Below are positions 1-29,593 of a stretch of DNA of 64,000 nucleotides, piece after piece (within the stretch, counting starts at the first letter, position 1; every line of letters begins with the position of its first letter). The stretch covers positions 6,432 through 70,431 of the forward strand of contig CARAIG010000073.1 in the NCBI GenBank assembly GCA_948938605.1, read 5' to 3'. Source of the DNA: an uncultured Eubacteriales bacterium. GTDB lineage: Bacteria; Bacillota; Clostridia; Christensenellales; CAG-314. Made by a program: the position numbers and the translations under genes. The notes under the pieces were generated by a model. The model searched no databases, was not told where the DNA came from, and saw only the letters and a program-made list of their open reading frames with translations.

Positions 1-110
1 TGCAATGTTAATATTATTGTACTACAAGCAGAATGAAAAGTAAAACAAAAAAAAGCCCGCTTTGCGTTGAAACCAATAAAGTGAGCTTTTAGTATTTACT
101 AATTGTATAT

Positions 111-147
111 TGTACAAGTTAAGCTGTTAAAGTGCGTTAATTGTACA
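111..147. repeat. H-element hairpin repeat, copy 1 (inverted relative to the other copies)
   Basis: Sequence is tgtacaagttaagc-tgttaaag-tgcgttaattgtaca. Its reverse complement ends in gcttaacttgtaca like the other copies. It lies 8 nt beyond the rubrerythrin stop. Confidence 0.6.
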
Positions 148-1146: not shown

Positions 1147-2511
1147 ATGATTAAACTACAACAAATATGGGACAATATTTTGCTGGAAACGGAATCGAAA
1201 GTTTCGACGTTGCAGTATGACTTGTATATAAACCAATTACAGCCCGTCGGCATACACAACGACAGGCTTTATTTGCTTGCCGAAACGCGAATCGTTAAAG
1301 GGATTGTAGACAAAAACTACAAGGATATAATACGTAAATGCACAAATCTCGTGTTTCCCACCATCATCGATGTGGAAATTGTTACCGAAAACGATTTGGA
1401 TAATATAGGCGATGTTGAAAAGGAAGCGGAATTGCCTGTTAGCAGCAGTTATGTTTCCCTTGTAGACGACAAGGCGGTGTTTGTAGCTCAATACACGTTT
1501 GATAACTTTGTTGTAGGCAAAAGCAACGAATACGCTCACGCCGTAGCATATGCCGTGTCCGAAGCGGAAACGACCAAATACAACCCTGTATTTTTGTGGG
1601 GAGGCGTGGGACTTGGTAAAACTCACTTAATGCACGCTATCGGCAATTCTTTGCAGCGTAATTTTCCCGAAAAGAAAATTAAGTACGTTACTTGCGACCA
1701 GTTTGTAAACGAATTTATCGAATCGTTGCACGACACTACTAACCCCAATGCAATGAAGAACTTCCGCAACAAGTACCGTAAGTTGGACGTATTAATGATG
1801 GACGACGTACAGTTTTTGGCTAAAAAGGAAGGAACGCAAGAAGAAATGTTCCACACGTTTAACGAACTGTATCTTGCCAATAAGCAGATTATTTTGAGCA
1901 GTGACCGTCCGCCGAAAGAAATACAAATAGAAGAACGTTTAAAAACGCGTTTTGCTACCGGCGTAATTGCGGATATTCAACCGCCCGATTTAGAAACGCG
2001 TATAGCGATTTTGCAAAAGAAGTGTAACGCTAAGGGGTACGGCTTAGATATTCGCGTATTAAGTCTTATTGCAGAAAAAATCACGAATAACATACGTGAA
2101 ATGGAAGGTATGTTGAACCGCATTATAAGTTACAGCACTCTTGTAGGCGGTAATCCCAACGAGATGAATATCGTACACGACGCCTTGCGCGATTATGCCG
2201 ACAGTACGTCGGATATAATTACTATCGACCATATAGTCGCCGCAACCTGCGATTACTTCCGCGTTAAACGCGAAGACTTAATCGGTAAAAAGAAAAACAA
2301 GGAAATCGTTGTCCCCCGTCAAATTTGTATTTACCTTATATGCGACATTTTGGGACAGAGTATTCCGCTTGTATCTATCGGCGAATATTTTGGCGGACGC
2401 GATCACACTACCGTTATGCACGCCCGCGACAAAATAAGCGAAGAATGCAAAAATAACGATACTACTGCGGCGCACGTTAAGGATATACGCGACAAAATCT
2501 ACAACCGCTAA
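1147..2511 (+). CDS. dnaA: Chromosomal replication initiator DnaA
   Basis: Walker A GGVGLGKTHL, box VII/sensor region and C-terminal HTH ...GGRDHTTVMHARDKI. The GTG at 1129 in the track lies inside the predicted -10, so the ATG at 1147 is preferred. Confidence 0.95.
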   Translation: MIKLQQIWDNILLETESKVSTLQYDLYINQLQPVGIHNDRLYLLAETRIVKGIVDKNYKDIIRKCTNLVFPTIIDVEIVTENDLDNIGDVEKEAELPVSSSYVSLVDDKAVFVAQYTFDNFVVGKSNEYAHAVAYAVSEAETTKYNPVFLWGGVGLGKTHLMHAIGNSLQRNFPEKKIKYVTCDQFVNEFIESLHDTTNPNAMKNFRNKYRKLDVLMMDDVQFLAKKEGTQEEMFHTFNELYLANKQIILSSDRPPKEIQIEERLKTRFATGVIADIQPPDLETRIAILQKKCNAKGYGLDIRVLSLIAEKITNNIREMEGMLNRIISYSTLVGGNPNEMNIVHDALRDYADSTSDIITIDHIVAATCDYFRVKREDLIGKKKNKEIVVPRQICIYLICDILGQSIPLVSIGEYFGGRDHTTVMHARDKISEECKNNDTTAAHVKDIRDKIYNR

Positions 2512-3060
2512 CCTAAGCCCGTATAAACATCGTAATACTGCGTTAAACTGCGAACGGTGGGCGCAGTCACGTATGTCCGTATACGCTCCTTTGCCACCGT
2601 CTTGTTTACCTTGTCTTGCTCGTTTCTACGGGCTTAGGACAAGATAGACTTTAAAGGGCGTTTACTGCGTTAAACATCATAGCTCGTTTCGGTCCTTTAC
2701 GTCTAGTAAACTCCCTGCGGGCTATTCGTTTGCCTAGCATCTGTGCCCATCTACGGGCTTAGGACAAGACGATTTAGAGTGTAAAATGCGTAATGTTGGC
2801 GACATTAATCAACTAAGTGTTACAAATCAATGGGATACATCTCGGAATTAGGTGGATGTCGGTCGTCTTTGCGAGCGAAGAATCCAGTAGGGTGGGCAGA
2901 CTCTTGCCCGCCGTAATTAATTAAACCCAACCTTAATTACGAATTCCGCATATATCTTTCAACCATCTTTATATTACGTCACCCCTCCGTCCGATTCGTT
3001 TTTATGGATATTGCAAAAAACGTAATCGTGCAATGTAATTAACGTCACTGCGATTATTAT
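2512..3060. repeat. Family-A mosaic intergenic element, copy 1
   Basis: Starts right after the dnaA stop. The roughly 85-nt 5' module (taagcccgtataaac...cacgtatgtc...tacgctcc) is shared with 20209-20293. A 12-bp perfect IR, cctaagcccgta (2512-2523), pairs with tacgggcttagg (2627-2638, repeated at 2751-2762). The gggcagaNNcttgcccgccgtaa block at 2894-2916 is shared with 20733-20755. Confidence 0.65.
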
Positions 3061-3140
3061 GAAAATTATGTTTTGCGATTGGTAAACTGACAAAAAATAA
3101 GTGACAAGTATGATTTTAATTTTATATTTACAATAAATAA

Positions 3141-3179
3141 AAGTACAAGTTAGGCGTTTAAACCGCTTTACTTGTACTT
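3141..3179. repeat. H-element hairpin repeat, copy 2
   Basis: aagtacaagttaggcgtttaaaccgctttacttgtactt, flanked by A/T runs, 91 nt beyond the stop of the 3270..5351 gene. Confidence 0.6.
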
Positions 3180-3269: not shown

Positions 3270-5351
3270 TTATTGCTTAATGCAGTCTACTATGTCATAA
3301 CCGAGCGATGTTATTTCCTGATAAAGTTTATCCAAGTCCATATAGTCGTAGGCATATATTTGCGCTAATTTTTTAAGCAGTTCGTCGTGTTTGTAATCTA
3401 ACTTGTTAATGTCCGCTTTGTCGTTTACGGCGCGGTACTTGTGTTTAATAAGTTTGTCCAAACCGTAGTAAGTAGTAATGCAAGCGTGAAGTTTTTTTGC
3501 AGTGTCCTTGTGCGCAACATTGCCTTGATCGTCGGCTTTAATATCCTTTGCGCGCATTTGCTTGTAGTCGTTTAAAATATACAGTGCGTTCCAGCGGGAG
3601 TGTTCGATAAACGCTAATACGTTGCTCGATTCCGTATTAAAAAAGAATGAGTAATCGCTGTAACCGTTATCCCGTCCGCTGTTTATGTAGCGTTCGTTAA
3701 ACTGTTTTTCCGTTACGGCAGCACCTTTATTATCCGAGTGTTTAACCATACCGTATCCCATAAGGTGCAGTTTAAATTGGTAATTAAGCGCATGGTACAA
3801 GTTGGACGACTGTTGTATAACGGGCAAGTCAAACCACATTTCGCGCATAAGTTCGCGGTTATCTTGTTGGTTGGTAATATTGTGATAAAGCAAGTTTATT
3901 GTTTGAGCCAGTACAGTCAAGTCGTCATTGACGATGGATTGGTGATCGAATATTTGTTTTTCGTTTCCGAAGTAGCAAACGTTGTCGTCGTATAATTTTA
4001 ATTTTTCCCCGCTGTTATTCCGTGTGCGCACAAATATTTTGTAATTCGTTTCGTTGTCTATTAAGCGTTTAATTGTTTGTGCGTATGCGGCGTCTTCCAA
4101 ATCGTCGGATAGCGAAACTATAAAATAAGTGTAACTGTCGGCGCTTACAAGCGACTTAAATAAGCGTTTTGCTTCGGTAGAGTTGATGTCTAAATTTTGA
4201 TGCGACAAGTTGCAGATTTTGGGCGGTTTTTCGAAATCGCAATTTTCAAAATCTTTGTCAAACTCGTAATCGATACGCGAAAAATATTCGTTATTCAAGG
4301 ACTTTTCGTCGTTGTCGAAAACATAATAATTTACGGGTTTTACTTCGAGTTTTTTGTTCGTATCGTCCATTTGGGCAAATTGGAACTGCGTCGAACACAT
4401 ACGGAACAAAGGATAATTAAACTTACCGAAGCCGACAAATACGATGTTTATTTGCTTGTCGCGTTTAAGGGTAAAGTTTCCGTTATAAAAGCCGCGCGGA
4501 ACATATTTTGTTATGGGGTGTTCGTAAACAAAATTGCGTGCAATCAATTCGTATTTGCTAAAACAGGATATGCGCGCGCCCACCTTTACTTCTTCCTGCG
4601 AAATAAACGTTTCCTTAATAAACTTCATTACGTTGTGTTCCGCTTCGATATGCAAAATTGCGTTTGCGCCTTGTTTTGTTAGTTGCGCAAAGTTATCGAT
4701 TACTTTTGTGTAAACCGAACCGCTGTCCTTAAAGACAATTATATGGTGTTCCTTTTTGGCAAGTTTGTATAAAAATATTTTGGAATTTAATTTAGCGTTA
4801 ATTACGGGTATGTTGTTTTTGAGCAAATCGGCATAACGGTCGCGTGAAGTTTTTTCTTCTAGCAAAATGCAGTTGCTGTTATTTTTAAGGTACTTTAACG
4901 AGTCGTCCGAATAACCCAAAACTATATCGCAACTTTTGCGCAATAAACGGTTTACTTTAAAGTAATTGCGTATACGTTGACTGAAAAAGCTTGCTACCGA
5001 CAAAACCGTCGCAGTTGCCGTAGCAATGTATGCTAAAATTATATCGGCGTAAAATAACGGCATAGCTTTGCATATGGGTGAAAGGAAACTTACGGATATT
5101 TTGAACTTAAACGTATCCAATACGGTGTTTCCCAGTGAAAAGCAGTACAGGAAAGTTAATTCTTCGCCGTTAAAAACCGCCGCTGTCATATACATAAAAT
5201 AAAGCAATATAACCGACGGCGCAAGGAAAAACAAATTCTTTTTGGAAATAAGTTCTCCGGAATTTTTGTTTGACCGCACCATTATGAAAATAATGGCGGA
5301 AATAAGGCCGATTGACAATATAAGGAATACGATACTTAAAGCTAAATACAT
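3270..5351 (-). CDS. Large membrane protein: N-terminal TM helices, two Rossmann/TrkA-N-like segments, C-terminal RyR-like segment. Function unknown.
   Basis: 693-aa ORF with an AGGAG RBS. Hydrophobic N-terminus, IVFVGFGKFN glycine-rich strand-loop, and C-terminal FIEHSRWNALY...KLHACITTYYGLD resembling RyR-domain signatures. Domain calls are by eye only. Confidence 0.7.
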   Translation of the reverse strand: MYLALSIVFLILSIGLISAIIFIMVRSNKNSGELISKKNLFFLAPSVILLYFMYMTAAVFNGEELTFLYCFSLGNTVLDTFKFKISVSFLSPICKAMPLFYADIILAYIATATATVLSVASFFSQRIRNYFKVNRLLRKSCDIVLGYSDDSLKYLKNNSNCILLEEKTSRDRYADLLKNNIPVINAKLNSKIFLYKLAKKEHHIIVFKDSGSVYTKVIDNFAQLTKQGANAILHIEAEHNVMKFIKETFISQEEVKVGARISCFSKYELIARNFVYEHPITKYVPRGFYNGNFTLKRDKQINIVFVGFGKFNYPLFRMCSTQFQFAQMDDTNKKLEVKPVNYYVFDNDEKSLNNEYFSRIDYEFDKDFENCDFEKPPKICNLSHQNLDINSTEAKRLFKSLVSADSYTYFIVSLSDDLEDAAYAQTIKRLIDNETNYKIFVRTRNNSGEKLKLYDDNVCYFGNEKQIFDHQSIVNDDLTVLAQTINLLYHNITNQQDNRELMREMWFDLPVIQQSSNLYHALNYQFKLHLMGYGMVKHSDNKGAAVTEKQFNERYINSGRDNGYSDYSFFFNTESSNVLAFIEHSRWNALYILNDYKQMRAKDIKADDQGNVAHKDTAKKLHACITTYYGLDKLIKHKYRAVNDKADINKLDYKHDELLKKLAQIYAYDYMDLDKLYQEITSLGYDIVDCIKQ

Positions 5352-5717: not shown

Positions 5718-5760
5718 AAAAGTACAAGTAACAGCGTTTAAAGGGCTTACTTGTACTTTT
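5718..5760. repeat. H-element hairpin repeat, copy 3
   Basis: aaaagtacaagtaacagcgtttaaagggcttacttgtactttt, 71 nt beyond the stop of the 5831..6727 gene. Confidence 0.6.
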
Positions 5761-8497: not shown

Positions 8498-8560
8498 TTG
8501 GTTAAAATAGCCGTTTATACAGAATTTTAACATTAAAACGACCGTCGGTTCATTAAAAAA
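8498..8560 (+). repeat. B-element, copy 1
   Basis: ttggttaaaatagccgtttatacagaattttaacattaaaacgaccgtcggttcattaaaaaa aligns with copies at 9700, 15013, 26194 and 31996. Confidence 0.65.
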
Positions 8561-8636: not shown

Positions 8637-8672
8637 GTGTACATCCAAAAGTGTCCAACTTTTGTGGTACAC
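8637..8672. repeat. H-like hairpin variant (GTGTAC...GTACAC arms)
   Basis: gtgtacatccaaaagt-gtcca-acttttgtggtacac. About 13 bp pair, and the outer arms match H-element termini. Confidence 0.4.
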
Positions 8673-8943
8673 CCTAAAATTACTTAAACGGCTATTCACA
8701 GTTCCTAAGTCAATTTCCGTTTAGCCATAGAATATCCGCAGGATACTAATGTGGGATTAAAACCCTGCGCCCGAAAGCGCGCATTTTGCGCACCCCTGCC
8801 GTTTGCCCGTCCGTTTAAACGCATACTCTAAAATTATAAATGATTTTTAAGTTAAAATCAAGGTAAATGTAACACATAAAAAAAAATTAAATATAAACTT
8901 TTTTACAGTAACGTATTTGTAAAAAATAGAGTTATGAAAATTG

Positions 8944-8972: not shown

Positions 8973-8996
8973 ATTTAAGCATAAAAATAACCAATT

Positions 8997-9020
8997 GTAT
9001 CGAAGTGTAGCGCAGTTGGG
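8997..9020 (+). repeat. Duplicated 5' fragment of tRNA-Pro (direct repeat of 9199-9222)
   Basis: gtatcgaagtgtagcgcagttgg versus gtatcgaggtgtagcgcagttgg at the true tRNA. An inverted D-arm copy, gcgctaccaactgc, lies near 9143-9156. Confidence 0.7.
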
Positions 9021-9202
9021 GATTTGCGTTAGCAAATAAAACCACAGAGCATTAAGATTATTTAGTAGTTGAAAACACACAAACAACACAGTGTGTTGTT
9101 TGTAGCAAATTCCGCAAGAACTATGTTCGTAGCGCGGAAGCGCCTTTGGCGCTACCAACTGCTATAAAACGGAAAAGTTAAATTAAATAGAAATAATCGT
9201 AT

Positions 9203-9278
9203 CGAGGTGTAGCGCAGTTGGTAGCGCGCTTGGTTCGGGACCAAGAGGCCATGGGTTCGAATCCCGTCACTTCGACCA
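9203..9278 (+). tRNA. tRNA-Pro (anticodon CGG), CCA encoded
   Basis: Manual cloverleaf: acceptor cgaggtg/cacttcg, D stem gcgc/gcgc, anticodon stem cttgg/ccaag with loop ttCGGga, T arm atggg-ttcgaat-cccgt, discriminator A plus CCA. Confidence 0.9.
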
Positions 9279-9301
9279 AGTCAACGGCTCGCTTGTGAGT
9301 C

Positions 9302-9343
9302 ACAAAGATAAGGAACGCAAAAGAGCGTTCCTTTTATCTTTGT
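9302..9343 (+). terminator. Hairpin downstream of tRNA-Pro (possible terminator or processing stem)
   Basis: acaaagataaggaacgc / gcgttccttttatctttgt long stem with a weak U-tract. Confidence 0.45.
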
Positions 9344-9449
9344 TCCCTTATGCTTCGCCGTTCTGGGTTTCCGTGACGAGACAGTTCGAATTATGTAGCG
9401 CTCCACTGAGTTACGCTTACCGTTGCTACGCAAACGGACGAATCCCGTT

Positions 9450-9485
9450 CTTAGCCGAGCAACGCAGTTGCGAACGCCATGAGCG
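9450..9485 (+). repeat. 36-nt block shared with family-A copy 2
   Basis: cttagccgagcaacgcagttgcgaacgccatgagcg matches 20488-20523 at 35 of 36 positions. Confidence 0.85.
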
Positions 9486-9699
9486 TAGCGAATACTTCGA
9501 CCAAAATAACGGCAACTTGCTTTTCTGTTGCTTCTGTTGCTGTGTTTCCTTTATTTGTTCTTATTTCGACAATTTCTTATCCACGCTCACTTCGTTTGCG
9601 AGGTGTTTGCGGTTGTATTGCTTTACTCGTCTATTTGGCTAAGCCGAGTTGGAGTATTAGAAATGCAAAGTGTCTTGTTAATGTTGCGGTGTCTACAAT

Positions 9700-9770
9700 G
9701 TGGTCAATACAGCCGTTTATACGGAATTGTGAGTCGTTAATAAGCAAATCGTCCGTTTAAGCGGAATAAA
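9700..9770 (+). repeat. B-element, copy 2
   Basis: gtggtcaatacagccgtttatacggaattgtgagtcgttaataagcaaatcgtccgtttaagcggaataaa. Confidence 0.6.
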
Positions 9771-10019
9771 ATTTCTTAGTAAATGTATTATTTGCTAGTT
9801 GGCAAAAGGCGTTGTATGCTGCTTGTTTGTGCAATTTAATAGTTAATTTTTGCAATTTCCCGCATACGTATGCGTCAAAACGGATTTTTTGTTGTGTTTA
9901 ATGTTGTTAAATTACTTGCAAAAGAAAACTCGGTAAAGTATAATCTTGTCATAATAGCATACAAGCAACTACTAATGATGTCTTAGAATTATTAACTACT
10001 GTTAATCCCTCGCTATTAC

Positions 10020-10075
10020 ATCGTATCACGCAACAAAATAATTGTTTGTGTAAAAATATATTCGTGTGCGATATA
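10020..10075 (+). repeat. C-element, copy 1 (imperfect inverted repeat, promoter-proximal to mscL)
   Basis: atcgtatcacgcaacaaaataattgtttgtgtaaaaatatattcgtgtgcgata is nearly identical to 25419-25475. Confidence 0.7.
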
Positions 10076-10097
10076 ATAAAAATTTAAGGAGCGATAT

Positions 10098-10762: not shown

Positions 10763-10945
10763 GCAATGTTTAATGTTTGGTTTTAATAATTAAGGTTGAA
10801 CAAATTTTGTCGGGCGGATTGTGCAATATTAATGTAAGCAATGCCGTATGGTTAGCAAGTACGGACGTTTGCGTATTCGTCAAGGATTGCCCTGTTCGTT
10901 GTTCGAAAGTAGCAGTTTGCCAGACGATAATTAAAGATAAGTATT

Positions 10946-10984
10946 GTGTACAAGTAACGTCATTTAAATGCTTAACTTGTACAC
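10946..10984. repeat. H-element hairpin repeat, copy 4
   Basis: gtgtacaagtaacgtcatttaaatgcttaacttgtacac, between the convergent genes mscL and pepV. Confidence 0.6.
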
Positions 10985-15012: not shown

Positions 15013-15075
15013 TTGGTTGGTACAGCCGTTTTTACGGAATTTTAACGTTTAAACGGACAAACATCCGTTTTAAAT
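15013..15075 (+). repeat. B-element, copy 3
   Basis: ttggttggtacagccgtttttacggaattttaacgtttaaacggacaaacatccgttttaaat. Confidence 0.6.
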
Positions 15076-15361
15076 AAACAATTGCTTGTAAATACAGTTG
15101 CGTATAATCACAAACTAAAACCAATTAAAATATTTTTATAAATTAAAAAATGCTTTACTAACAACGGTAAAGAATAAAACGCTTTGTCAATCGGTTGCAG
15201 AAATATAAAATCGCTATTCGGCAAATTGCAATAAATGAATTGCCGCCGCACAGTGTTCAATATTTGACAATTGCTTTTTGCGGCAGTATAATGTGAAAGG
15301 TTTTTAAGTCTATTAAAAAGCATTGATGAATTTTCGGTATAGATTCGATAACGGGAGTATT

Positions 15362-16276
15362 ATGGAAGAACAATCTAAAAAGTTTAAAATTAATAAAAAA
15401 GAACTTATGCGGACAATAAAGTTTACCTTGTTTTCGATATCCGCAGGAGTAATACAAATCGTTTCGTCCTTTTTGCTTAAATTGCTTATATTGGACAAAC
15501 TTATCCCCTCCGACGCAACGATACGTTTTATTACCGAACAGCCGTTGGAAACGTTTATTGCCGAAACGGTAGGACTTGCGCTATCGATAATTTGGAACTT
15601 TACCTTTAACCGCAAGTTTACATTTAAGGCGGCAAATAATGTGCCGATAGCAATGCTATTGGCGTTTGCGTTTTATGTTCCGTTTTATCCGTTCCAAACT
15701 TGGTACATAGCAACGGTAGAAAAATCCCTTATTCATATAGGCGATTGGGGCTTTGTAATTGCACAAGTAACCGTAATGGTAATCAACTTTGTTTTGGAAT
15801 ACTTGTGGCAAACGTTTGTGGTATTCCGCAAATCCATCGATACAAATACGGCAGCGCAAAAACAGCAGCAAAACGTAGCGGAAACCGATGACGGAACGCA
15901 AGATAAAAATTCGGCAGACAATGCCGAACAAGCCGTTCAGACTAAGGACAAAGCAAAAGATATTGCAACGGATAACTTGTCGCAAAAAATAGAAGTCGAC
16001 GTTGTGCTTGTCGACGCAGGAAAGGACAAAGCAAAAGATATTGCAACGGATAACTTGTCGCAAAAAATAGAAGTCGACGTTGTGCTTGTCGACGCAGGAA
16101 AGGACAAAATTGCAGTAATAAAAGTTTTGCGCGAAGTTTTAAGTTTGGAATTGTCCCAAGCAAAAACCCTTGCGGAAAACACCCCCGCTACAATTGCGGA
16201 AAATAAGTTAAAAGACGAAGCTGTTGTTATTGCGGATAAATTACGCAACGTCGGCGCAACGGTCGAACTTAAATAG
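15362..16276 (+). CDS. GtrA-family membrane protein fused to a ribosomal protein L7/L12 C-terminal domain
   Basis: N-terminal GtrA signature (IKFTLFSISAGVIQ...SIIWNFTFNRKFTFK...WQTFVVFRKS). The C-terminal 70 aa, KIEVDVVLVDAGKDKIAVIKVLREVLSLELSQAKTLAENTPATIAENKLKDEAVVIADKLRNVGATVELK, aligns with E. coli L7/L12 [68 protein letters not shown]. GGGAG RBS lies before the ATG at 15362. Confidence 0.8.
   Translation: MEEQSKKFKINKKELMRTIKFTLFSISAGVIQIVSSFLLKLLILDKLIPSDATIRFITEQPLETFIAETVGLALSIIWNFTFNRKFTFKAANNVPIAMLLAFAFYVPFYPFQTWYIATVEKSLIHIGDWGFVIAQVTVMVINFVLEYLWQTFVVFRKSIDTNTAAQKQQQNVAETDDGTQDKNSADNAEQAVQTKDKAKDIATDNLSQKIEVDVVLVDAGKDKAKDIATDNLSQKIEVDVVLVDAGKDKIAVIKVLREVLSLELSQAKTLAENTPATIAENKLKDEAVVIADKLRNVGATVELK
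15946..16101 (+). repeat. Perfect 78-bp tandem duplication (2 units) inside the GtrA-L12 fusion gene
   Basis: Units 15946-16023 and 16024-16101 are identical. Each encodes DKAKDIATDNLSQKIEVDVVLVDAGK (26 aa), in frame. Confidence 0.95.
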
Positions 16277-16399
16277 GCATACCGCAACATTTATAAAATT
16301 AGCGCATTTATGTATAAGTAACGCCATTTAAAACATTTAGTTGTACATATTATATTGTCGTATATGTGCTTTGTTCAAAACCGATTAACAAAAAAATAT

Positions 16400-17726: not shown

Positions 17727-18059
17727 TTGAAGTCTAAGTACAGACTCAAAAAAAATTATCAATACAACTATGTGTACAAACACGCCAAAAGCGTTGCCGA
17801 CAAAAACTTTGTAATGCTGTTTTGCAAAAGCAATAACCAAGTTCCGCAAGCGGGTTTTTCCGTTAGCAAAAAGTTCGGCAATGCAGTACGTCGAAACAGA
17901 GTCCGTCGTCAGCTTAAAGCAGCGGTAAGTAATTTAATGCCGAAAGTCAAACCGCATTACAACATAGTATTTATTCCGCGCAAAAGCGGAAGTTACTTGT
18001 ATGCCGACATTGTCGAAAGCGTAACAAGTTTGTTCGAAAAATCGGGGTTGCTTGTATGA
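17727..18059 (+). CDS. rnpA: Ribonuclease P protein component
   Basis: Position after rpmH, plus the basic RNR-type motif FGNAVRRNRVRRQLK. Confidence 0.9.
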   Translation: MKSKYRLKKNYQYNYVYKHAKSVADKNFVMLFCKSNNQVPQAGFSVSKKFGNAVRRNRVRRQLKAAVSNLMPKVKPHYNIVFIPRKSGSYLYADIVESVTSLFEKSGLLV

Positions 18060-18301
18060 AATACCTTGCCATAGCGTTATTAAAACTGTACAAAGCCACT
18101 TTATCCAAATGGAAAGGTGGCAAAACGTGTATTTATACGCCGAGTTGTTCGGTGTATTCGATGGAAGCGTATGCCGAATTCGGTTTTTTTAAGGGCAGTT
18201 GGTTGACGTTAAAAAGGCTGTGCAGATGTGCGCCTTGGGGCAAGGGCGGTTTTGATCCTGTGCCTGTAAATTTAAAAGGGCAAATGAAGTGGCACGTGTA
18301 G
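18056..18301 (+). CDS. yidD: Membrane protein insertion efficiency factor YidD
   Basis: C.YTPSCSVYSMEA...GFFKG..LTLKRLCRCAPWGKGGFDPVP. Overlaps rnpA by 4 nt. Confidence 0.9.
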   Translation: MKYLAIALLKLYKATLSKWKGGKTCIYTPSCSVYSMEAYAEFGFFKGSWLTLKRLCRCAPWGKGGFDPVPVNLKGQMKWHV

Positions 18302-18329
18302 TTGTGTTGATTACCGAAAAGGGGAAATA

Positions 18330-19640
18330 ATGAGAAAAAAAATAAGCGCTGCGCTTACGGTTGCGTTATTGGCAATGATATTGCTTACGACGCTTGTAAG
18401 CTGCAAAACATCTTCCGTAGACTACTTCGACTACGGTAAAGACAGCCTTGGCGTAGTAGGTAAACTTGTATTGCTTATGCACCAATGGATAGGTAATTAT
18501 GGTTGGACCGTAGTTGTCTTTACGTTGTTTTTAAAAATATTAATGCTGCCGTTAGATATTTGGCAGCGTTTTTCTGCACGTAAAAACGCACTTAAAATGC
18601 AACGTTTACAACCTATAATCGAAGGAATAGACAAACGTTACGGAGCAAACACTCAACGCGCCAACGACGAAAAGCAAAAACTTTACAAAAAGCAAGGATA
18701 CTCTATGTTGTCCACGTGCTTACCTATGATATTGTCTATGGTAATATTCTTTGTAATGTTCGGCGGATTGCGCGAATACTCCACGTACAGCACTATTATC
18801 ACTTTCCAAGATTTGTCTGCCGAATACTACAATGTTTTGGAACACGAGTTTACATTGGACGAAACCAGCGAAATATATAAAGTGTATACCGACGAGTATA
18901 AATCAAGGGAAACACAATATAAAAATTCCGCTTCGGATAAAGTTAAGGAATTGACCAAGTACGAGGACCTTGTAAAATTGTACTCTCAAATTCACGCGTC
19001 TAATGCGGCAATTAAGTTTGACTCCGCTGCTGCGGACGAAGCGCATAAACTGGCGATAGAACGCGTCCAATCAAAATATTTGGAAGAAAAAGAAAGTTGG
19101 TTGTGGATAAAGAACGTTTGGCAGCCCGACACATGGGAAACGGTAATGCCTGCTTATAATAAGGGGGCAAATGCTTTTTCTACGTCTATTAATATGACAA
19201 ACTTCCCTGACGGCAACGGTGAAGCGACATATAACCTAATCCGTTCGGCAATTTTGGAAGTTGACGGTTACGGCGCAAACGGTACTTGGAACGGTTTGAT
19301 GATTTTGCCTATTTTATCCATAGGTTTGTCATTCCTGTCTATGTGGCTGTCGCAATTTATGGAAAAACGCAGCCGCAAGGGCGAACAGCCTGTCGAAAAT
19401 ACTGCACAAAACGCACAGCAACAAGCGACAAACAAAATGATGATGATACTTATGCCGCTTATGATGGCTGTATTCGGATTTATGTATACGGGCGCATTTG
19501 CAATCTATATGGTATGCAACTATACGTTAAGCATAATTTCCACCGTAGCTATGCGTTTGCCTGTGGAAAAAATGGTAGAAAAGAGTCTTGCTAAAAGCGA
19601 AAAGAAGGAAAATAACGGCAAGGCAAGTTATATGAGGTAA
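18330..19640 (+). CDS. yidC: Membrane protein insertase YidC (lipoprotein type) with an enlarged loop
   Basis: Lipobox LVSC, conserved LPL..WQ, KLYKKQGYS, WLWIKNVWQPD and C-terminal TM helices. At 436 aa it is longer than typical Gram-positive YidC. Confidence 0.9.
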   Translation: MRKKISAALTVALLAMILLTTLVSCKTSSVDYFDYGKDSLGVVGKLVLLMHQWIGNYGWTVVVFTLFLKILMLPLDIWQRFSARKNALKMQRLQPIIEGIDKRYGANTQRANDEKQKLYKKQGYSMLSTCLPMILSMVIFFVMFGGLREYSTYSTIITFQDLSAEYYNVLEHEFTLDETSEIYKVYTDEYKSRETQYKNSASDKVKELTKYEDLVKLYSQIHASNAAIKFDSAAADEAHKLAIERVQSKYLEEKESWLWIKNVWQPDTWETVMPAYNKGANAFSTSINMTNFPDGNGEATYNLIRSAILEVDGYGANGTWNGLMILPILSIGLSFLSMWLSQFMEKRSRKGEQPVENTAQNAQQQATNKMMMILMPLMMAVFGFMYTGAFAIYMVCNYTLSIISTVAMRLPVEKMVEKSLAKSEKKENNGKASYMR

Positions 19641-19647
19641 TATCATA

Positions 19648-20211
19648 ATGAGCAATATACAACAAGCGGCGTCTTTAAATGATAACGTCGCGCATATTAA
19701 GGAATTTTTACACAATGTACTGGTTAAAATGGACATTGTCAATTGCGAAGTCGAAGTAAGCGAAAACGGCGACAGCGTTATTATGAATATCGTCGGCGAA
19801 GACGCGCCTAATGCTATCGGCTACCGCGGCGAAACGCTTGACGCATTGCAATACTTGTGCAACTTGCTGCTGGACGCATCCGAAAGCGGCTTTAAACGCG
19901 TATCTTTGGATGCGGAAAACTATCGCGCTAAACGTGAAAAGATTTTGCAGCGTTTGGCAAGTAACATCGAACAAAAAGTTAAACGTACGGGCAAGGAAGT
20001 AAGTCTTGAACCTATGAATCCGTATGAAAGACGTATAATACACACCGCTTTGCAATCGAGTAAATACGTAACCACCCAAAGCGACGGACAAGGAACGCGC
20101 CGTCACGTTGTAATTACTCCCGTTAATCAAAGTAATATACTTAATGCACCCAATGCACCGCGTAAGACTTTGAATTTTGTATACCGCAGCGAAAAGAAAA
20201 AACGTCGCTAA
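19648..20211 (+). CDS. jag: RNA-binding protein Jag/KhpB (KH plus R3H domains)
   Basis: GYRGETLDALQYL (KH) and EPMNPYERRIIHTAL (R3H). Conserved position after yidC. Confidence 0.85.
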   Translation: MSNIQQAASLNDNVAHIKEFLHNVLVKMDIVNCEVEVSENGDSVIMNIVGEDAPNAIGYRGETLDALQYLCNLLLDASESGFKRVSLDAENYRAKREKILQRLASNIEQKVKRTGKEVSLEPMNPYERRIIHTALQSSKYVTTQSDGQGTRRHVVITPVNQSNILNAPNAPRKTLNFVYRSEKKKRR

Positions 20212-20800
20212 GCCCGTATAAACTTCGCATACTGCGTTAAACGTCGGACGGTTGCTTCGGTCACGTATGTCTTTGTACGCTCCCGCACCACAATGATGCC
20301 AATTGCACACAATCTACGCTTGTGCGTAATTGCAGTTTGCTAGTCCCGCATTGTGCCCGTATAAAATCACGTCTGCGTTGGATTACGTTTTGCCTAGGTC
20401 GTGTATGTCTACTACACTCCCGTCGGCAAATCCGCGCCCGCCTAGCATCTACCCCTTTCTACTGGCTTAAGATTGGATACCAATGTCCTTAGCCGAGCAA
20501 CGCAGTTGCGAACGCCACGAGCGAATGCGAGTATTGCGAGCGAAGCGAAGCAATCCGGAATTTAACTAAACTCAACATTAATTACGTATTATAACCATTT
20601 CGATCAACTTTGTACTATGTCATGTCGAGCGTAGTTTCGCCAAAGGACGGAGAATGTTGCGAGACATCTAGACGAGTAATACGAGTCGCATTATATAAAA
20701 ACCAACTATAAATAATCAATTACTCGTAGGTTGGGCAGAACCTTGCCCGCCGTAAAATTAAACTAAACGTAACCGCAATTACGCATTAAACTGCATTACG
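20212..20800. repeat. Family-A mosaic intergenic element, copy 2
   Basis: Its shared 5' module begins with the jag stop codon itself (cgcTAAgcccgtataaac). An internal second gcccgtataaaa unit lies near 20349. It shares blocks with 2512-3060, 9450-9485 and 31126-31270. Confidence 0.65.
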
Positions 20801-20848: not shown

Positions 20849-20877
20849 TAGCCCGCTATATCGATATAGCAGGGCTA
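20849..20877. other. Strong palindrome/hairpin containing a perfect 16-bp palindrome, GCTATATCGATATAGC
   Basis: tagccc-gctatatcgatatagc-a-gggcta. The perfect palindrome spans 20855-20870, about 110 bp upstream of the CotH-like gene. Confidence 0.5.
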
Positions 20878-20984
20878 ATATTTTCCCAACTGCAAAAGTA
20901 ATAAATGAGTTGCTTGTTATATTAACATAATTATCAGTTGCGGAATAATGTCCCAAAATATAAATTGTTCAAGGATGTAATTGT

Positions 20985-22688
20985 ATGAGAAAAATTGTAA
21001 TAATTGTACTATTTGCTGTAATGCTTGTAGCATTAACCGCGTGTATTCCTGTTGCGCCGCCATCCGATACCGACAGCGACGTCGTTATTACTTTTTCGAC
21101 GGAACAAGGTGCATTTGCAAACGGTGAAACGTCAAAAAAAGTCAAATCCGACGTTAACGGTAAGGTAGCAATCAACGACGAACCGCGTTTGGACGGATAT
21201 GCTTTTAGCGGTTGGTATAACGGACAGGATAAGTTCGATTCTTCCGCAAAGTATACAAAAAGTCAAACCTTTACCGCCAAGTATGTTTCGGGAGCGGAAA
21301 ACGGCGTATACGAAGCGCTGTTTAGCGAAAGCGCACAAGTAAAGGTGGACATAAATATGTCCGACGCGCAGTGGAAAAAATTAAATCAAGACTATTTGGA
21401 TTTTAGCGCAATCGGGGGCAAATCGCCCATATACCGTATGGCGGACAGTGTTACTATCGCCATAGACGACGGAAACGGTTACTTGCACTACTACTACGAA
21501 GAAGTCGGCGTGCGTATGAAAGGTAACACTTCGCGTCACGCATTTTACGGTGACGACGGTTTTACAAGTACGGTTCACTTTAAACTGTCCTTTAAGGAAA
21601 CGTTTGACGACGTTGACGACGGCTATAAGCAAGACGAACTAAAAGTGTGGACGGATGATTCCAAACGCGACGAACGTAAAGATAGGACGTTTGGCGGAAT
21701 GGAAAAGATAGATTTAAAATACAACTCCACTGCCGACGAAACTTACGTTCGCGAGATGTACGCAATGAAGCTGTTCCGCGACAACGGCATATACGCACCG
21801 CACATTACATTGTGTGCTCTTACCGCATTGGAAAAGGACGCAACAACTAAAAACTTAGGAGTGTACCGCATACACGAACCGATTGACGAAGTGTTTATTG
21901 CCCGTAATTTGGGCGAACAAAAAGTGGGCGATTTGTGGAAATGCACGTATTCGTCAAAAGGACCTGCCGACTTAACCAACTACGACTTGGAAAACCGCGT
22001 CGGTGTTGAAGACGAACTTAAAAACAAGTTTTACAGTTACGACAAAAAGACAAACAAAAAGAAAGATAAAGTTACGGGTTTGCGAGACCTTTCCTCCATT
22101 AAAAACTTTATAACTGCAATTAACGGAAGTAACCCCGACTTCGAAAATCTGTTAGACATAAACTACTTTGCCAAGTTCGAAGCAATCAATTACATTTTGG
22201 GTAATCCCGATTGCATACGCAACAACTACAACAATTACTACTTGTATTTCCGCGCCGACGGCAAGGCGATAATAATACCTTACGATTATGACAGATGTTT
22301 GGGTATTACAAAGGATTGGAACCCGACGGGTAGCGCAAATATGTATGTTACGCCTTATACGCGCACCGTTGCGGCAACCGGAGGCGGACAAAACAATCCG
22401 CTTTACGTAAAGCTTATAGACAAGGGCGCGCCCACAGATGACGGCTCGGCGCTTATGCGTTTCCGTCAAAATTTAATTACAATGTCCAATGCGCCAATGG
22501 TGACGGTTCAAGCGTTTAATGCGTACGCTAACGGCTTTAAAGACCGTTACTCGACATTTACCGCAAACGCAATAAGCGTAAACGGTTTGCAGTTCGGTGC
22601 GACCGACACAGGCAACGTTGCATACGCAACATACATTCAAACCAAGCTTAAAACGTTAAACGACAACATCGACAACTACAATCCGTAA
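20985..22688 (+). CDS. CotH-family (atypical kinase-like) lipoprotein with an N-terminal Listeria-Bacteroides-type repeat
   Basis: Lipobox LTAC, GYAFSGWYNGQDKF repeat, and CotH-like blocks VRMKGNTSR, YVREMYAMKLFRDNGIYAP, NNYYLYF...IIPYDYDRCLG. Confidence 0.8.
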   Translation: MRKIVIIVLFAVMLVALTACIPVAPPSDTDSDVVITFSTEQGAFANGETSKKVKSDVNGKVAINDEPRLDGYAFSGWYNGQDKFDSSAKYTKSQTFTAKYVSGAENGVYEALFSESAQVKVDINMSDAQWKKLNQDYLDFSAIGGKSPIYRMADSVTIAIDDGNGYLHYYYEEVGVRMKGNTSRHAFYGDDGFTSTVHFKLSFKETFDDVDDGYKQDELKVWTDDSKRDERKDRTFGGMEKIDLKYNSTADETYVREMYAMKLFRDNGIYAPHITLCALTALEKDATTKNLGVYRIHEPIDEVFIARNLGEQKVGDLWKCTYSSKGPADLTNYDLENRVGVEDELKNKFYSYDKKTNKKKDKVTGLRDLSSIKNFITAINGSNPDFENLLDINYFAKFEAINYILGNPDCIRNNYNNYYLYFRADGKAIIIPYDYDRCLGITKDWNPTGSANMYVTPYTRTVAATGGGQNNPLYVKLIDKGAPTDDGSALMRFRQNLITMSNAPMVTVQAFNAYANGFKDRYSTFTANAISVNGLQFGATDTGNVAYATYIQTKLKTLNDNIDNYNP

Positions 22689-25298: not shown

Positions 25299-25418
25299 TG
25301 TTTTGCTCCTTAAAGTTTTGTCGGGTTATTTGTAAAACCGTTTGACTTTATAATAACATATGTAATTAAGTTTAACTGCACTTAACTACGACTAACTACG
25401 TTTAACAAGCGTTATTAG

Positions 25419-25475
25419 ATCGTATCACGCAACAAAGTAATTGTTTGTTTAAAATTATATTCGTGTACGATAATA
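25419..25475 (+). repeat. C-element, copy 2
   Basis: atcgtatcacgcaacaaagtaattgtttgtttaaaattatattcgtgtacgata. See 10020-10075. Confidence 0.7.
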
Positions 25476-25501
25476 TATAATTTGTTTTAATTAATTACAA
25501 A

Positions 25502-26193: not shown

Positions 26194-26257
26194 GTGGTTA
26201 AAATAGACGTTTAAACAGAATTTTTGTGTTTAAATGAGTTGACGTCCGTTAGAATGC
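26194..26257 (+). repeat. B-element, copy 4
   Basis: gtggttaaaatagacgtttaaacagaatttttgtgtttaaatgagttgacgtccgttagaatgc. Confidence 0.65.
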
Positions 26258-27016: not shown

Positions 27017-27220
27017 TTTTTTATATTATGTGAAATATTTTAACCGTATTTATTTGTTGTACTTGTTATTCGGTGTTTTTGTATTTTTTGATATTTTTTT
27101 ATGACGTGACGGAGCTCGGACAAATGCCGCAAAAAAACGCAGTTTAGCGAACCGTATCGCGCAACTTTACAAAATACAATTTTTTGCGACTAATATTTAT
27201 GTAATTACAACACAATAAGT

Positions 27221-27260
27221 TGTGTACAAGTAAAGTCGTTTAAAGGCTTAACTTGTGCAT
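27221..27260. repeat. H-element hairpin repeat, copy 5
   Basis: tgtgtacaagtaaagtcgtttaaaggcttaacttgtgcat, 45 nt beyond the mnmG stop. Confidence 0.6.
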
Positions 27261-29158: not shown

Positions 29159-29556
29159 TGTTATATATCCTTGAAATTTACTTAATTTTTTGTTTCTGTG
29201 TGACAATTGTTAAAAGCATATTTGCTAAATGTGCCAAACCGTTGTTGCTGTACTGTGTCGGTTTTGCCGTATTTGTTTGCGCTAATTACTTTACTTGTTT
29301 TGTTATTTTGCTGCACTTATGTTTACATAGGGTTTTATTCGTTTTTGCGTAGTTGAATTTTTGCAATCAAAACGTTTTTAATAATTTGCAGATCTGCTTG
29401 TTGCGTATGCTTGCCGTATATAACCTTTTGTTCTTTTTAAATAATTTGTATTAAAAGCGTTGTTTGTTTGCATCGTATTTTTAAAAACATCACCACAAGT
29501 GCAATTTGTAAAACTGCGCGCCGATACGGTATATATTAAGGCTGTTTACAAATTGT

Positions 29557-29593
29557 TGTACAAGAGAAGCCGTTTAAATGCCTAACTTGTACA
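29557..29593. repeat. H-element hairpin repeat, copy 6
   Basis: tgtacaagagaagccgtttaaatgcctaacttgtaca, 23 nt beyond the mnmE stop. Confidence 0.6.

What the first reader, a model, noticed from the sequence alone, without database searches (positions are those of the whole stretch)
2512..3060. GC-rich mosaic element (family A) begins at the stop codons of dnaA and jag
Two elements of about 0.55-0.6 kb (2512-3060 and 20212-20800) share several collinear blocks:
- a 5' module of about 85 nt (taagcccgtataaac..actgcgttaaac..cacgtatgtc..tacgctcc);
- gcctagcatct..ctacNggctta;
- ttgcgagcgaag;
- gggcagaNNcttgcccgccgtaa.
Both follow the context cgcTAA. In jag, the TAA of the shared block is itself the stop codon. 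Copy 1 contains a 12-bp perfect inverted repeat (2512-2523 with 2627-2638) whose right arm is duplicated at 2751-2762, which allows alternative pairings. The elements look more GC-rich than the surrounding AT-rich spacers, as structured RNAs do in AT-rich genomes. I see no ORF in them and do not recognise them as any known RNA or IS. They could be a novel 3'-UTR RNA, a MITE-like element, or recombination scars.
Basis: seen in the sequence. Interest (0 to 1): 0.6.

Follow-up and report, generated by a model that had tools for sequence, protein, structure and literature searches.

The report
Hairpin-rich repeat inserts after two stop codons
Two related, non-coding, hairpin-rich inserts of about 430-570 bases sit directly after the stop codons of dnaA and jag in one uncultured mouse-gut Clostridia species; they are absent from its closest relatives, so they look like a small new family of intergenic repeat elements rather than a conserved regulatory RNA.

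Summary
Window 2512-2941 and 20208-20783 are collinear paralogues (alignment z = 16.6 against shuffles), with 46% GC against 28-30% in the rest of the same spacers.

Each insert has 2-3 tandem units of about 125 nt (about 280 nt in one strain). A unit runs: left arm CTAAGCCCGTATAAAC, box ACTGCGTTAAAC, a small hairpin between GTC and CTCC(C), variable hairpins, then right arm TCTACGGGCTTAG. A shared tail follows the units.

- The small hairpin is kept in five units with four different stem sequences.
- There is no Rfam match, no coding signal, and no DnaA boxes in the inserts.
- Sister species (DnaA 87-91% identical, Jag 78-86%) have an AT-rich spacer, with a plain terminator where I read it, at both sites. 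The inserts are therefore a species-specific gain.
- Strains differ by a 245-nt unit bounded by a 12-nt direct repeat. SNP density is roughly the synonymous rate.
- I found only two loci in about 82 kb of this species, and none in about 130 kb from relatives.

Best reading (about 0.5): a non-autonomous, hairpin-forming intergenic repeat (REPIN/BOX/MITE-like), transcribed passively as 3' UTR. Genome-wide copy number and any mobilising enzyme could not be determined. Modest interest.

The parts
2509..2511 (+). dnaA stop codon. The element begins one base later.
   Evidence: ORF 1129/1180-2511 matches Bac_DnaA, Bac_DnaA_C and DnaA_N. DnaA has the same length and C-terminus as in sister species.
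2512..2638 (+). Unit 1A of copy 1, 127 nt. Left arm 2512-2528. Box ACTGCGTTAAAC 2537-2548. Outer stem 2554-2560 / 2594-2600. Hairpin 2570-2575 / 2580-2585 between GTCA (2566-2569) and CTCC (2586-2589). Right arm 2622-2638.
   Evidence: Inverted repeat of 17 nt at 94%. Folds as one long rod: RNA z = -4.2, DNA z = -3.9 on + and -4.7 on -.
2650..2763 (+). Unit 1B of copy 1, a diverged unit. Box 2664-2675. Outer stem 2682-2686 / 2718-2722. Hairpin TTTAC/GTAAA 2696-2700 / 2706-2710 between GGTCC and CTCCC. GCCTAGCATCT 2732-2742. Right arm 2752-2763.
   Evidence: Exact repeats spaced 125-127 nt and the 12-nt perfect inverted repeat with 2512-2523. nhmmer scores 59.6 bits, but this unit was in the training set. 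Weak fold when taken alone.
2869..2941 (+). Tail of copy 1. TTGCGAGCGAAG 2869-2880. Hairpin block GTAGGGTGGGCAGACTCTTGCCCGCCGTAA 2887-2916. AT-rich block TTAATTAAACCCAACCTTAATTACG 2917-2941.
   Evidence: blastn-short matches to copy 2. The hairpin folds better on the + strand: DNA -7.9 against -4.5 kcal/mol.
3139..3178 (.). Terminator-like hairpin (GTACAAGT..ACTTGTAC) shared by convergent dnaA and the 693-aa gene. It lies downstream of the element, so the element sits inside the presumed dnaA transcript.
   Evidence: Member of an 8-copy hairpin family in the window (family D1). A T-run follows in the sequence. The simple terminator scan did not call it.
20208..20354 (+). Unit 2A of copy 2. Left arm 20208-20223 contains the jag stop 20209-20211. 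Box 20231-20242. Hairpin CGTATG/TGTACG 20264-20269 / 20274-20279 between GTCA and CTCCC. Further hairpin 20299-20333. No right arm. In this strain it is a fusion of two units across GTACGCTCCCGC (20275-20286).
   Evidence: Strain L002 carries 245 extra bases at this point, bounded by the 12-nt direct repeat.
20355..20471 (+). Unit 2B of copy 2. GCCCGTATAAAA 20355-20366. Outer stem TTTGCC/GGCAAA 20389-20394 / 20425-20430. Hairpin GTGTA/TACAC 20401-20405 / 20413-20417 between GGTC and TCCC. GCCTAGCATCT 20440-20450. Degenerate right arm TTTCTACTGGCTTAAG 20456-20471.
   Evidence: Poor fold score.
20488..20523 (+). 36-nt block CTTAGCCGAGCAACGCAGTTGCGAACGCCACGAGCG, shared at 97% with 9450-9485 and absent from copy 1.
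   Evidence: (family D18). Also present, inverted, downstream of tRNA-Pro in relatives L032 and L033.
20534..20783 (+). Tail of copy 2. TTGCGAGCGAAG 20534-20545. AT-rich block 20562-20586. A 140-nt stretch without counterpart in copy 1, including the strain-variable 24 nt at 20637-20660. Hairpin block 20726-20755. Second AT-rich block 20756-20783.
   Evidence: 33-nt direct repeat at 20559 and 20756, 79%.
20849..20885 (+). Terminator-like hairpin TAGCCCGCTATATCGATATAGCAGGGCTA followed by ATATTTT, downstream of copy 2 and upstream of cotH (20985).
   Evidence: Read from the sequence. Conserved in all strains. Not called by the simple scan.
9450..9485 (+). Related 36-nt block inside a 215-nt insert (9280-9494) downstream of tRNA-Pro. 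The insert is bounded by the direct repeat CTTCGACCAA (9270-9279 and 9495-9504).

Best explanation
These are two paralogous copies of a species-specific, non-coding, hairpin-forming composite repeat. Each is a short tandem array of palindromic units plus a shared tail. It is the same general kind of thing as REP/REPIN clusters, pneumococcal BOX elements and MITEs.

**Shown**
- The two copies are homologous along their whole length.
- They are built from repeated units with inverted ends.
- One internal hairpin is kept although its sequence differs between units.
- The composite lies between the stop codon and a terminator-like hairpin of dnaA and of jag.
- It is missing at both sites in every relative I examined.
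- Unit number changes between strains at a 12-nt direct repeat.

**Inferred**
- A two-unit-plus-tail composite was copied as a whole from one locus to the other. A-type and B-type units are each closer across loci than within a locus.
- The copying used either an unidentified transposase that recognises hairpins or microhomology-mediated recombination at ..CTAA.
- The arrays then grew and shrank by unequal recombination between conserved boxes, with occasional exchange of short blocks between loci (the 36-nt block at 97%).
- The inserts are transcribed passively as long structured 3' UTRs of dnaA and of the rnpA-yidD-yidC-jag operon. There the hairpins may at most slow 3'-to-5' decay.
- Hairpin retention reflects selection at the level of the element (competence to be copied) rather than a host function.
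For: - Homology between the copies: (z = 16.6).
- Unit architecture and inverted arms. Unit 1A folds as a single rod on both strands, as RNA and as DNA, as expected for a DNA palindrome.
- The GTC-hairpin-TCC element is kept in five units with four different stems: CGTATG/TATACG, CGTATG/TGTACG, GTGTA/TACAC, TTTAC/GTAAA and CGTAC/GTACG. Only about 3-4% of equally anchored background or random segments have such a stem. Outer stems give a combined p of about 0.005 (my Fisher combination of the five shuffle fractions).
- Absence at orthologous sites. After dnaA: L034 and L035 (DnaA 91%), L030 and L032 (87-88%). After jag: L041-43 (Jag 86%; the jag-cotH spacer is 242 nt there against 773 nt here) and L044-47 (78%). 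Gene lengths are unchanged.
- Strain polymorphism: a 245-nt unit bounded by GTACGCTCCCGC, plus 24-nt and 10-nt indels.
- SNP density in the element is 1.6-3.3%, similar to the rest of the spacer (3-4%) and to my rough estimate of the synonymous rate in yidC.
- No coding signal.
- No Rfam family.
- Literature: compensatory changes in hairpins and tandem clusters up to 700 bp are described for REPINs (PMC3116915). Modular size variation from 67 to 637 bp, enrichment downstream of coding sequences and co-transcription are described for BOX elements (PMC3049150).
Against: - Only two loci in about 82 kb of this species, so 'repeat family' rests on 4-6 units.
- No target-site duplication at unit or composite ends.
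- No transposase, integrase or Y1/RAYT gene among the window ORFs I scanned.
- The elements are GC-rich, unlike classical MITEs.
- Both copies have the same orientation as the upstream gene and start within 0-1 nt of a stop codon. Random insertion does not predict this precision.
- In strain L002 the closing helix extends into the last jag codon (CGCTAAGCCCGTA / TACGGGCTTAGCG), while at dnaA it reads CCTAAG.. / ..CTTAGG. The outermost pairs therefore match locus by locus, which hints at selection on, or homogenisation of, the helix in place.
- The rest of the genome could not be searched. The species gave no match in either large contig collection.
Confidence: 0.5

Rival explanations
1. A lineage-specific family of functional structured RNAs: 3'-UTR elements or 3'-UTR-derived small RNAs. 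Each unit would be an RNA domain closed by the CUAAGCCCGUA/UACGGGCUUAG helix. It would present a conserved CUCC(C) motif next to a hairpin. That motif resembles the anti-Shine-Dalgarno sequence (my own knowledge) and could pair with ribosome-binding sites or bind a protein.
For: - Same orientation as the upstream genes, and a position between stop codon and terminator-like hairpin.
- The hairpin is kept through sequence change.
- G-U pairs in several stems read on the + strand, and the tail hairpin is clearly better on +.
- Copy 1 folds better on + (z = -4.2) than on - (z = -2.0).
- The outermost pairs of the closing helix differ between loci yet stay complementary.
- CUCC(C) follows the hairpin in all five units (read from the sequences).
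Against: - Absent at both sites from all relatives examined.
- SNP density is near the neutral rate, and whole units are gained or lost between strains.
- In L002 the tail hairpin has changes on both sides of one pair that break it rather than compensate.
- Copy 2 folds no better than shuffles on + (z = +0.7).
- Units 1A and L002-U1 fold equally well on both strands.
- No promoter or terminator flanks single units.
- No Rfam match.
Confidence: 0.2
2. Scars of integrated or exchanged DNA. The spaces after dnaA, jag and tRNA-Pro would be hot spots where foreign segments were integrated and later decayed. The shared blocks would be leftovers of related attachment or end regions, shuffled by recombination.
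For: - The gene content next to dnaA differs between species: a 693-aa gene here, a 310-aa gene or mscL in relatives.
- The tRNA-Pro 3' region holds a 215-nt insert bounded by a 10-nt repeat of the tRNA end, typical of integrase sites. That insert carries the 36-nt block found in copy 2.
- The block order differs between the copies: the tail hairpin block sits in a different place.
- Both copies abut a gene end.
Against: - No integrase or other mobile-element gene in the window.
- dnaA and jag ends share only CGCTAA, which codon usage explains.
- cotH, downstream of jag, is kept in the sister species without the insert.
- The regular unit structure with retained hairpins is not expected of random decay.
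Confidence: 0.15
3. Origin-proximal DNA sites bound by a chromosome-organising or replication protein. All three related places lie within about 20 kb of dnaA.
For: Location near dnaA, the rnpA-yidC-jag operon, gidAB and parAB. Repeated boxes occur at regular spacing.
Against: - No DnaA box in the elements. The 27 near-matches in the window all lie elsewhere.
- Not conserved in relatives with the same gene neighbourhood.
- The whole window is origin-proximal, so enrichment cannot be judged.
Confidence: 0.05

Closest known systems
REPINs and REP clusters (BIMEs), mobilised by RAYT tyrosine transposases (Bertels and Rainey 2011, PMC3116915)
   Same: - Two short conserved sequences in inverted orientation around a less conserved spacer that still folds into a hairpin.
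- Compensatory changes in the hairpin.
- GC-rich relative to spacers, and extragenic.
- Tandem clusters of several hundred bases.
- Right arms read ...GTAG on the complementary strand, and the tail hairpin is preceded by GTAG. This recalls the REP tetranucleotide (my own knowledge; a 4-mer only).
   Different: - No RAYT or Y1 transposase in the window.
- Only two loci seen, against tens to hundreds.
- Arms of 12-17 nt are separated by about 95 nt with extra conserved boxes.
- The host is a Clostridia species, whereas REPIN-RAYT systems are best known from Proteobacteria (my own knowledge).
- No sequence similarity.
Pneumococcal BOX elements, boxA-boxB(n)-boxC (Croucher et al. 2011, PMC3049150)
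   Same: - Modular, with a variable number of internal modules.
- Size range from tens to more than 600 bp.
- Highly base-paired.
- Often downstream of coding sequences and co-transcribed as UTR.
- Occur in a low-GC Gram-positive host.
   Different: - BOX elements have many copies per genome, and terminal inverted repeats with target-site duplications are reported for them.
- Here there are two loci and no duplication.
- Sequence relation to boxA, boxB or boxC was not tested.
Classical bacterial MITEs (Correia, ERIC, RUP)
   Same: - Unit 1A is 127 nt with 17-nt inverted ends and folds as one rod.
- Non-coding.
- Presence or absence differs between close species.
   Different: - No target-site duplication.
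- Not AT-rich.
- No partner IS identified.
- The composite, not the single unit, appears to be what was copied between loci.
Clostridiales-1 RNA (Rfam RF01699)
   Same: Found in gut Clostridiales. There is a weak full-length alignment to 20467-20565, including the AUUGCG..GCAAUCC hairpin.
   Different: The score is 14.5 bits against a gathering score of 48, and E = 0.7 even in a 241-nt search. That stretch has no counterpart in copy 1. I treat the hit as chance.

Membership tests
MITE | Terminal inverted repeats | tested here: met
   Unit 1A: 2512-2528 against 2622-2638, 17 nt, 16/17 complementary. A 12/12 match with 2752-2763. The arms of unit 2B are degenerate. The composite as a whole has no inverted ends.
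MITE | Target-site duplication flanking the element | tested here: not met
   No direct repeat flanks unit 1A, unit 1B or either composite (sequence read; repeats). The CTAA/TTAG at the ends are part of the inverted repeat.
MITE | Many dispersed copies in the genome | tested here: inconclusive
   Two loci in about 82 kb of this species and none in about 130 kb from relatives. The rest of the genome could not be reached: pattern scans of both large collections returned only chance hits.
MITE | A partner insertion sequence with matching ends | tested here: inconclusive
   No transposase domain among the window ORFs I scanned. Genome-wide search was not possible.
MITE | AT-rich relative to the genome | tested here: not met
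   46% GC against 41% for the window and 28-30% for the flanking spacer.
REPIN / REP-RAYT | Two inverted conserved sequences with a spacer that folds into a hairpin, with compensatory changes | tested here: met
   Rod-like fold of unit 1A on both strands. Five units keep the GTC-hairpin-TCC element with four different stems. Outer stems are weaker: individual shuffle fractions 0.006-0.31, which I combined to p of about 0.005.
REPIN / REP-RAYT | An associated RAYT (Y1 transposase) gene | tested here: inconclusive
   None in the 64-kb window. RAYTs are single-copy, so absence from 64 kb says little.
REPIN / REP-RAYT | Tens to hundreds of extragenic copies | not testable with these tools
Look-ups and collection scans are exhausted.
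BOX-like modular repeat | Modules whose number varies between copies and strains | tested here: met
   Two units in copy 1, two in copy 2 of this strain and three in strain L002, which has a 245-nt extra unit.
BOX-like modular repeat | Sequence homology to boxA, boxB or boxC | not tested
Any Rfam RNA family (including Clostridiales-1, group II intron domains, 6S, ROOL, raiA) | Score at or above the family's gathering threshold | tested here: not met
   Only tRNA-Pro passes in the window. E-value scans of both elements and of the L002 variant give nothing better than 14.5 bits for Clostridiales-1, whose cut-off is 48.
Conserved cis-acting 3' UTR of dnaA or jag | Presence at the orthologous position in related species | tested here: not met
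   The element is absent after dnaA in L030, L032, L034 and L035, and after jag in L041-L047. Where I read the sequence (L034, L035, L041-43) the stop is followed by an AT-rich spacer and a terminator hairpin.
Pseudogene / decayed coding sequence | Similarity stronger in one reading frame, or homology to a protein | tested here: not met
   tblastx similarity between the copies is the same in all six frames. Concatenated six-frame peptides found nothing among 5.8 billion proteins.

The most novel reading that the evidence does not exclude
The units are a new class of structured RNA domain that attaches to the very end of an open reading frame. Its closing helix starts at, or includes, the stop codon; in strain L002 it also includes the last sense codon of jag. 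Each unit displays a CUCC(C) motif beside a conserved hairpin. Such an array could couple translation termination of dnaA and khpB/jag to mRNA decay, or could act as a sponge for a ribosome-binding sequence or an RNA-binding protein. It would spread between gene ends as a mobile 3'-UTR module.
Probability: 0.1. Interest if true: 0.65.

Novelty: new member of a known kind. Interest (0 to 1): 0.3.

Why it matters
If the best reading is right, this adds a small, previously undescribed family of hairpin-forming intergenic repeats in an uncultured gut Clostridia lineage. Such elements are little catalogued there.

It also gives a clean example of a repeat gained exactly between stop codon and terminator of two core genes, dnaA and jag/khpB. 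That matters in practice in three ways:
- for annotation, because these are long GC-rich 'empty' spacers;
- for strain typing, because unit number varies between strains;
- as a caution against calling such regions novel regulatory RNAs on the basis of GC content and hairpins alone.

It would matter more if the units proved to be processed RNAs, or if the precise abutment to stop codons reflected a real targeting mechanism.

Tried and rejected
- **Known RNA families.** Rfam at gathering threshold on the whole window, and E-value scans of both elements, of the L002 variant and of other GC-rich spacers. Nothing usable.
- **Pseudogene or small ORFs.** ORF lists and tblastx show frame-independent similarity.
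- **Spurious ORFs from other copies.** A query of concatenated six-frame peptides against the protein database found nothing, so it gave no information on copy number.
- **oriC or DnaA-box cluster.** No box in the elements.
- **'cgcTAA' as a target or element end.** Rejected. CGC is 47% of Arg codons, and AGR-to-CGY changes are common between these species.
- **More copies by pattern scans.** The 5'-module pattern returned only chance hits in viral, genome and JGI metagenome collections. Three further patterns in viral contigs gave none or only chance-level hits.
- **Phage or plasmid origin.** No blastn match.
- **Extending the genome.** About 18 kb beyond both window ends holds no further copy.
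- **Formal covariation count.** MAFFT shifted one row of my N-padded alignment, so I used anchored-hairpin and shuffle statistics instead. Outer stems are individually weak.
- **Strand asymmetry as evidence for RNA.** Inconclusive. Copy 1 and the tail hairpin favour the + strand. Copy 2 as a whole scores slightly better on the - strand. Units 1A and L002-U1 fold equally well on both strands.
- **Resemblance to the sister species' terminator.** The closing helix resembles the dnaA terminator stem of L034 (CCCGTCA..TGACGGG). I judged this too short to mean anything.
- **Strain-specific reverse transcriptase in L038.** Below all family cut-offs, in a region with a weak XhlA (phage-type) hit, and with no visible link to the elements.
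Full report
**Setting**

The window comes from an uncultured Clostridia bacterium found in mouse-gut metagenomes.
- Exact-protein look-ups place its genes on ENA mouse-gut assemblies and on NCBI MAGs GCA_948690475.1, GCA_948809795.1 and GCA_965646805.1. Sources name related DnaA proteins 'Clostridia/Clostridiales bacterium'.
- ORF 1129/1180-2511 is DnaA. ORFs 17727-20211 are rnpA, yidD, yidC and jag/khpB (R3H plus KH domains). ORF 20985-22688 is a CotH-domain protein.
- The whole window is origin-proximal: gidB, parA/parB-type neighbours, ftsH, addAB and uvrC. No ORF I scanned has a transposase or integrase domain.

Yes.
- blastn-short finds the 36-nt 5' block (92%), the 30-nt hairpin block (90%), a 25-nt AT-rich block (88%) and several exact 11-13-mers, all in the same order.
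- A collinear global alignment of 2512-2941 with 20212-20783 scores 220.5. Shuffles give 72 +/- 9, and other non-coding stretches of the window give 50-110.
- The inverted repeat is as described, with one arm off by a base: 2512-2528 / 2622-2638, and 2512-2523 / 2752-2763.
- GC is 46% in both elements, 28-30% in the rest of the same spacers and 41% overall.
- The 'cgcTAA' context is not meaningful. CGC is the commonest Arg codon here (47%), and relatives' AGR codons are often CGY in this species.

**Anatomy**

Each element is a short tandem array of units followed by a tail.

A unit reads, 5' to 3':
1. left arm CTAAGCCCGTATAAAC;
2. box (A)CTGCGTTAAAC;
3. an outer stem;
4. G(G)TC, a 5-6-bp hairpin, then CTCC(C);
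5. variable hairpins;
6. in B-type units, GCCTAGCATCT;
7. right arm TCTACGGGCTTAG(G).

Unit content of the copies:
- Copy 1 has unit 1A (2512-2638) and a diverged unit 1B (about 2650-2763). Exact repeats are spaced 125-127 nt.
- Copy 2 has 2A (20208-20354, no right arm) and 2B (20355-20471), with a period of about 140 nt.
- Strain L002 has 245 more bases in copy 2, bounded by the direct repeat GTACGCTCCCGC. It therefore carries a complete first unit of about 280 nt with extra hairpins and a right arm, then a 5'-truncated second unit.
- The window strain's 2A is the recombinant between those two units.

The tail holds TTGCGAGCGAAG, a small hairpin block (GTAGGNTGGGCAGANNCTTGCCCGCCGTAA) and an AT-rich block (TTAAYTAAAC..AATTACG).
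- In copy 2 the AT-rich block occurs twice, and the hairpin block sits about 140 nt further downstream than in copy 1.
- Copy 2 also contains a 36-nt block that is 97% identical to 9450-9485 downstream of tRNA-Pro and has no counterpart in copy 1.
- A-type units (1A, 2A) and B-type units (1B, 2B) are each more alike across loci than within a locus. The two-unit-plus-tail composite therefore existed before it was copied between loci (inference).

**Structure**

- Unit 1A folds into a single long imperfect rod. It does so equally well on both strands, as RNA (z = -4.2 and -4.4) and as DNA (z = -3.9 and -4.7). The long L002 unit gives z = -6.3 on both strands.
- Units 1B, 2A and 2B on their own do not beat shuffles.
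- Copy 2 as a whole gives z = +0.7 on the + strand. Copy 1 gives -4.2 on + and -2.0 on -.
- The best structural evidence is the small hairpin between GTC and TCC. Five units have it with four different stems: CGTATG/TATACG, CGTATG/TGTACG, GTGTA/TACAC, TTTAC/GTAAA and CGTAC/GTACG. Only about 3% of random segments and about 4% of equally anchored window segments have one.
- Outer stems exist in all units but are individually weak. Shuffle fractions run from 0.006 to 0.31; my Fisher combination gives p of about 0.005.
- The closing helix matches locus by locus at its outermost pairs: CCTAAG../..CTTAGG after dnaA, and CGCTAAG../..CTTAGCG after jag in L002. At jag it thus includes the stop codon and the last codon.
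- Strand preference is mixed, so the data do not separate an RNA fold from a single-stranded-DNA fold.

**Not a known RNA, not coding, not oriC**

- Rfam gives only tRNA-Pro at gathering score. E-value scans give nothing better than a 14.5-bit hit to Clostridiales-1, whose cut-off is 48.
- tblastx similarity between the copies is the same in all frames. Six-frame peptides hit nothing in the protein database.
- No DnaA boxes lie in the elements.
- There is no match in phage or plasmid collections.

**Comparative evidence**

This is the decisive part.
- Downstream of dnaA, the two closest other species (DnaA 91% identical) have the stop codon followed within 7-15 nt by an ordinary terminator hairpin and a T-run.
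- Two species at 87-88% also lack the element.
- Downstream of jag, the closest species (Jag 86%) keeps the jag-cotH arrangement, with a 242-nt AT-rich spacer and a terminator where the window has 773 nt. The next species (78%) has a 102-nt spacer.
- DnaA and Jag have the same length and C-terminus throughout.
- Both elements are therefore gains in this species' lineage. They lie precisely between the stop codon and a terminator-like hairpin (3139-3178 and 20849-20877).
That set includes about 82 kb of this species and about 130 kb from relatives.
- A 21-base pattern of the 5' module hit nothing but chance in 185,579 representative genomes, in JGI metagenomes and in IMG/VR. This also means the species itself gave no match in those collections.

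**Variation within the species**

- Copy 1 is identical, or differs at one base, in the five other assemblies that could be aligned.
- Copy 2 differs between strains by the 245-nt unit, by 24-nt and 10-nt indels, and by SNPs at 1.6-3.3%.
- For comparison, the rest of the spacer shows 3-4% and yidC 0.5-0.9% overall. I estimate that the yidC figure corresponds to roughly 3% at synonymous sites.
- In L002 the tail hairpin has changed on both sides of one pair in a way that breaks it.
- This is close to neutral change with frequent unit-level rearrangement.

**Interpretation**

The pattern is what small hairpin-forming intergenic repeats show:
- species-specific gain;
- modular tandem units with inverted arms;
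- a hairpin kept through sequence change;
- near-neutral drift and unit gain or loss;
- no coding, and no conservation in relatives.

REPINs have compensatory hairpin changes and tandem clusters up to about 700 bp (PMC3116915). BOX elements are modular, 67-637 bp, enriched downstream of coding sequences and co-transcribed (PMC3049150).

I therefore take these to be two copies of a new composite repeat of that general kind, transcribed passively as long 3' UTRs.

**Weak points**
- Only two loci were seen.
- There is no target-site duplication.
- No mobilising enzyme was found.
- The GC content is unlike classical MITEs.
- The start within 0-1 nt of two stop codons, in the orientation of the gene, is striking. 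Together with the locus-matched closing helix, it keeps a functional-RNA reading alive (about 0.2).
- A 'scar of integrated DNA' reading (about 0.15) draws on the tRNA-Pro region, which has an integrase-like 10-nt direct repeat and shares a block with copy 2. But no integrase is present, and random decay does not explain the regular units.

**Verdict**

This is a new family of a known kind, with modest interest. The key unknown is genome-wide copy number. That, together with transcript ends, would settle the matter.

Noticed in passing
window 8982-9019, 9184-9221, 9270-9504: Around tRNA-Pro(cgg) (9203-9278) there is a second, partial copy of the tRNA 5' end with its upstream sequence (84% over 38 nt). 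There is also a 215-nt insert (9280-9494) bounded by the 10-nt direct repeat CTTCGACCAA, which is the tRNA 3' end. Relative L032 has the tRNA followed directly by the sequence that here follows the second repeat, and it carries the shared block in the opposite orientation. This looks like an old integration or rearrangement site.
   Followed up: partly
window 108-147, 3139-3178, 5718-5757, 10944-10983, 16308-16347, 27220-27259, 29554-29593: A family of similar hairpins (GTACAAGTAA..loop..TTACTTGTAC, often followed by T-runs) recurs at gene ends. They are terminator-like and unusually alike in sequence. The simple terminator scan does not call them.
   Followed up: no
window 8499-8530, 9701-9732, 15014-15045, 26195-26226, 31997-32028, 35579-35610: A 32-60-nt intergenic motif (TGGTTAAAATAGCCGTTTATACAGAATTTT...) occurs six times. 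Its function is unknown; it could be a promoter or operator region, or another repeat family.
   Followed up: no
window 15944-16099: A perfect 78-nt tandem duplication lies inside the ORF 15323-16276, whose product carries a ribosomal L7/L12-like domain. Strains differ in the length of this protein (278 against 304 aa).
   Followed up: no
window 39065-39290; also 8660-8830 and 38190-38340: These are further GC-rich, hairpin-rich non-coding patches. The first starts right after the stop codon of the DUF1256 gene (38495-39064) and shares an exact 12-mer (AATCTACGCTTG) with copy 2 (20311-20322). There are no Rfam matches. They may be other families of the same kind of insert.
   Followed up: partly
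L038 17238-19451 (strain GCA_948809795.1, about 9 kb to the left of dnaA): A strain-specific insertion carries a 356-aa reverse transcriptase that scores below all NCBIfam cut-offs (best 109 bits to group II intron RT, cut-off 300). Its neighbours are small ORFs, one with a weak XhlA (phage-type) hit. It is absent from strains L039 and L040.
   Followed up: partly
window 3270-5351 (- strand): A 693-aa predicted membrane protein has no Pfam or NCBIfam match. It occupies the variable slot next to dnaA that holds other genes in relatives (a 310-aa protein or mscL).
   Followed up: partly
window 10011-10084 and 25410-25483: Two 74-nt upstream regions are 86% identical. They probably form a shared promoter or operator in front of two different genes.
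   Followed up: no
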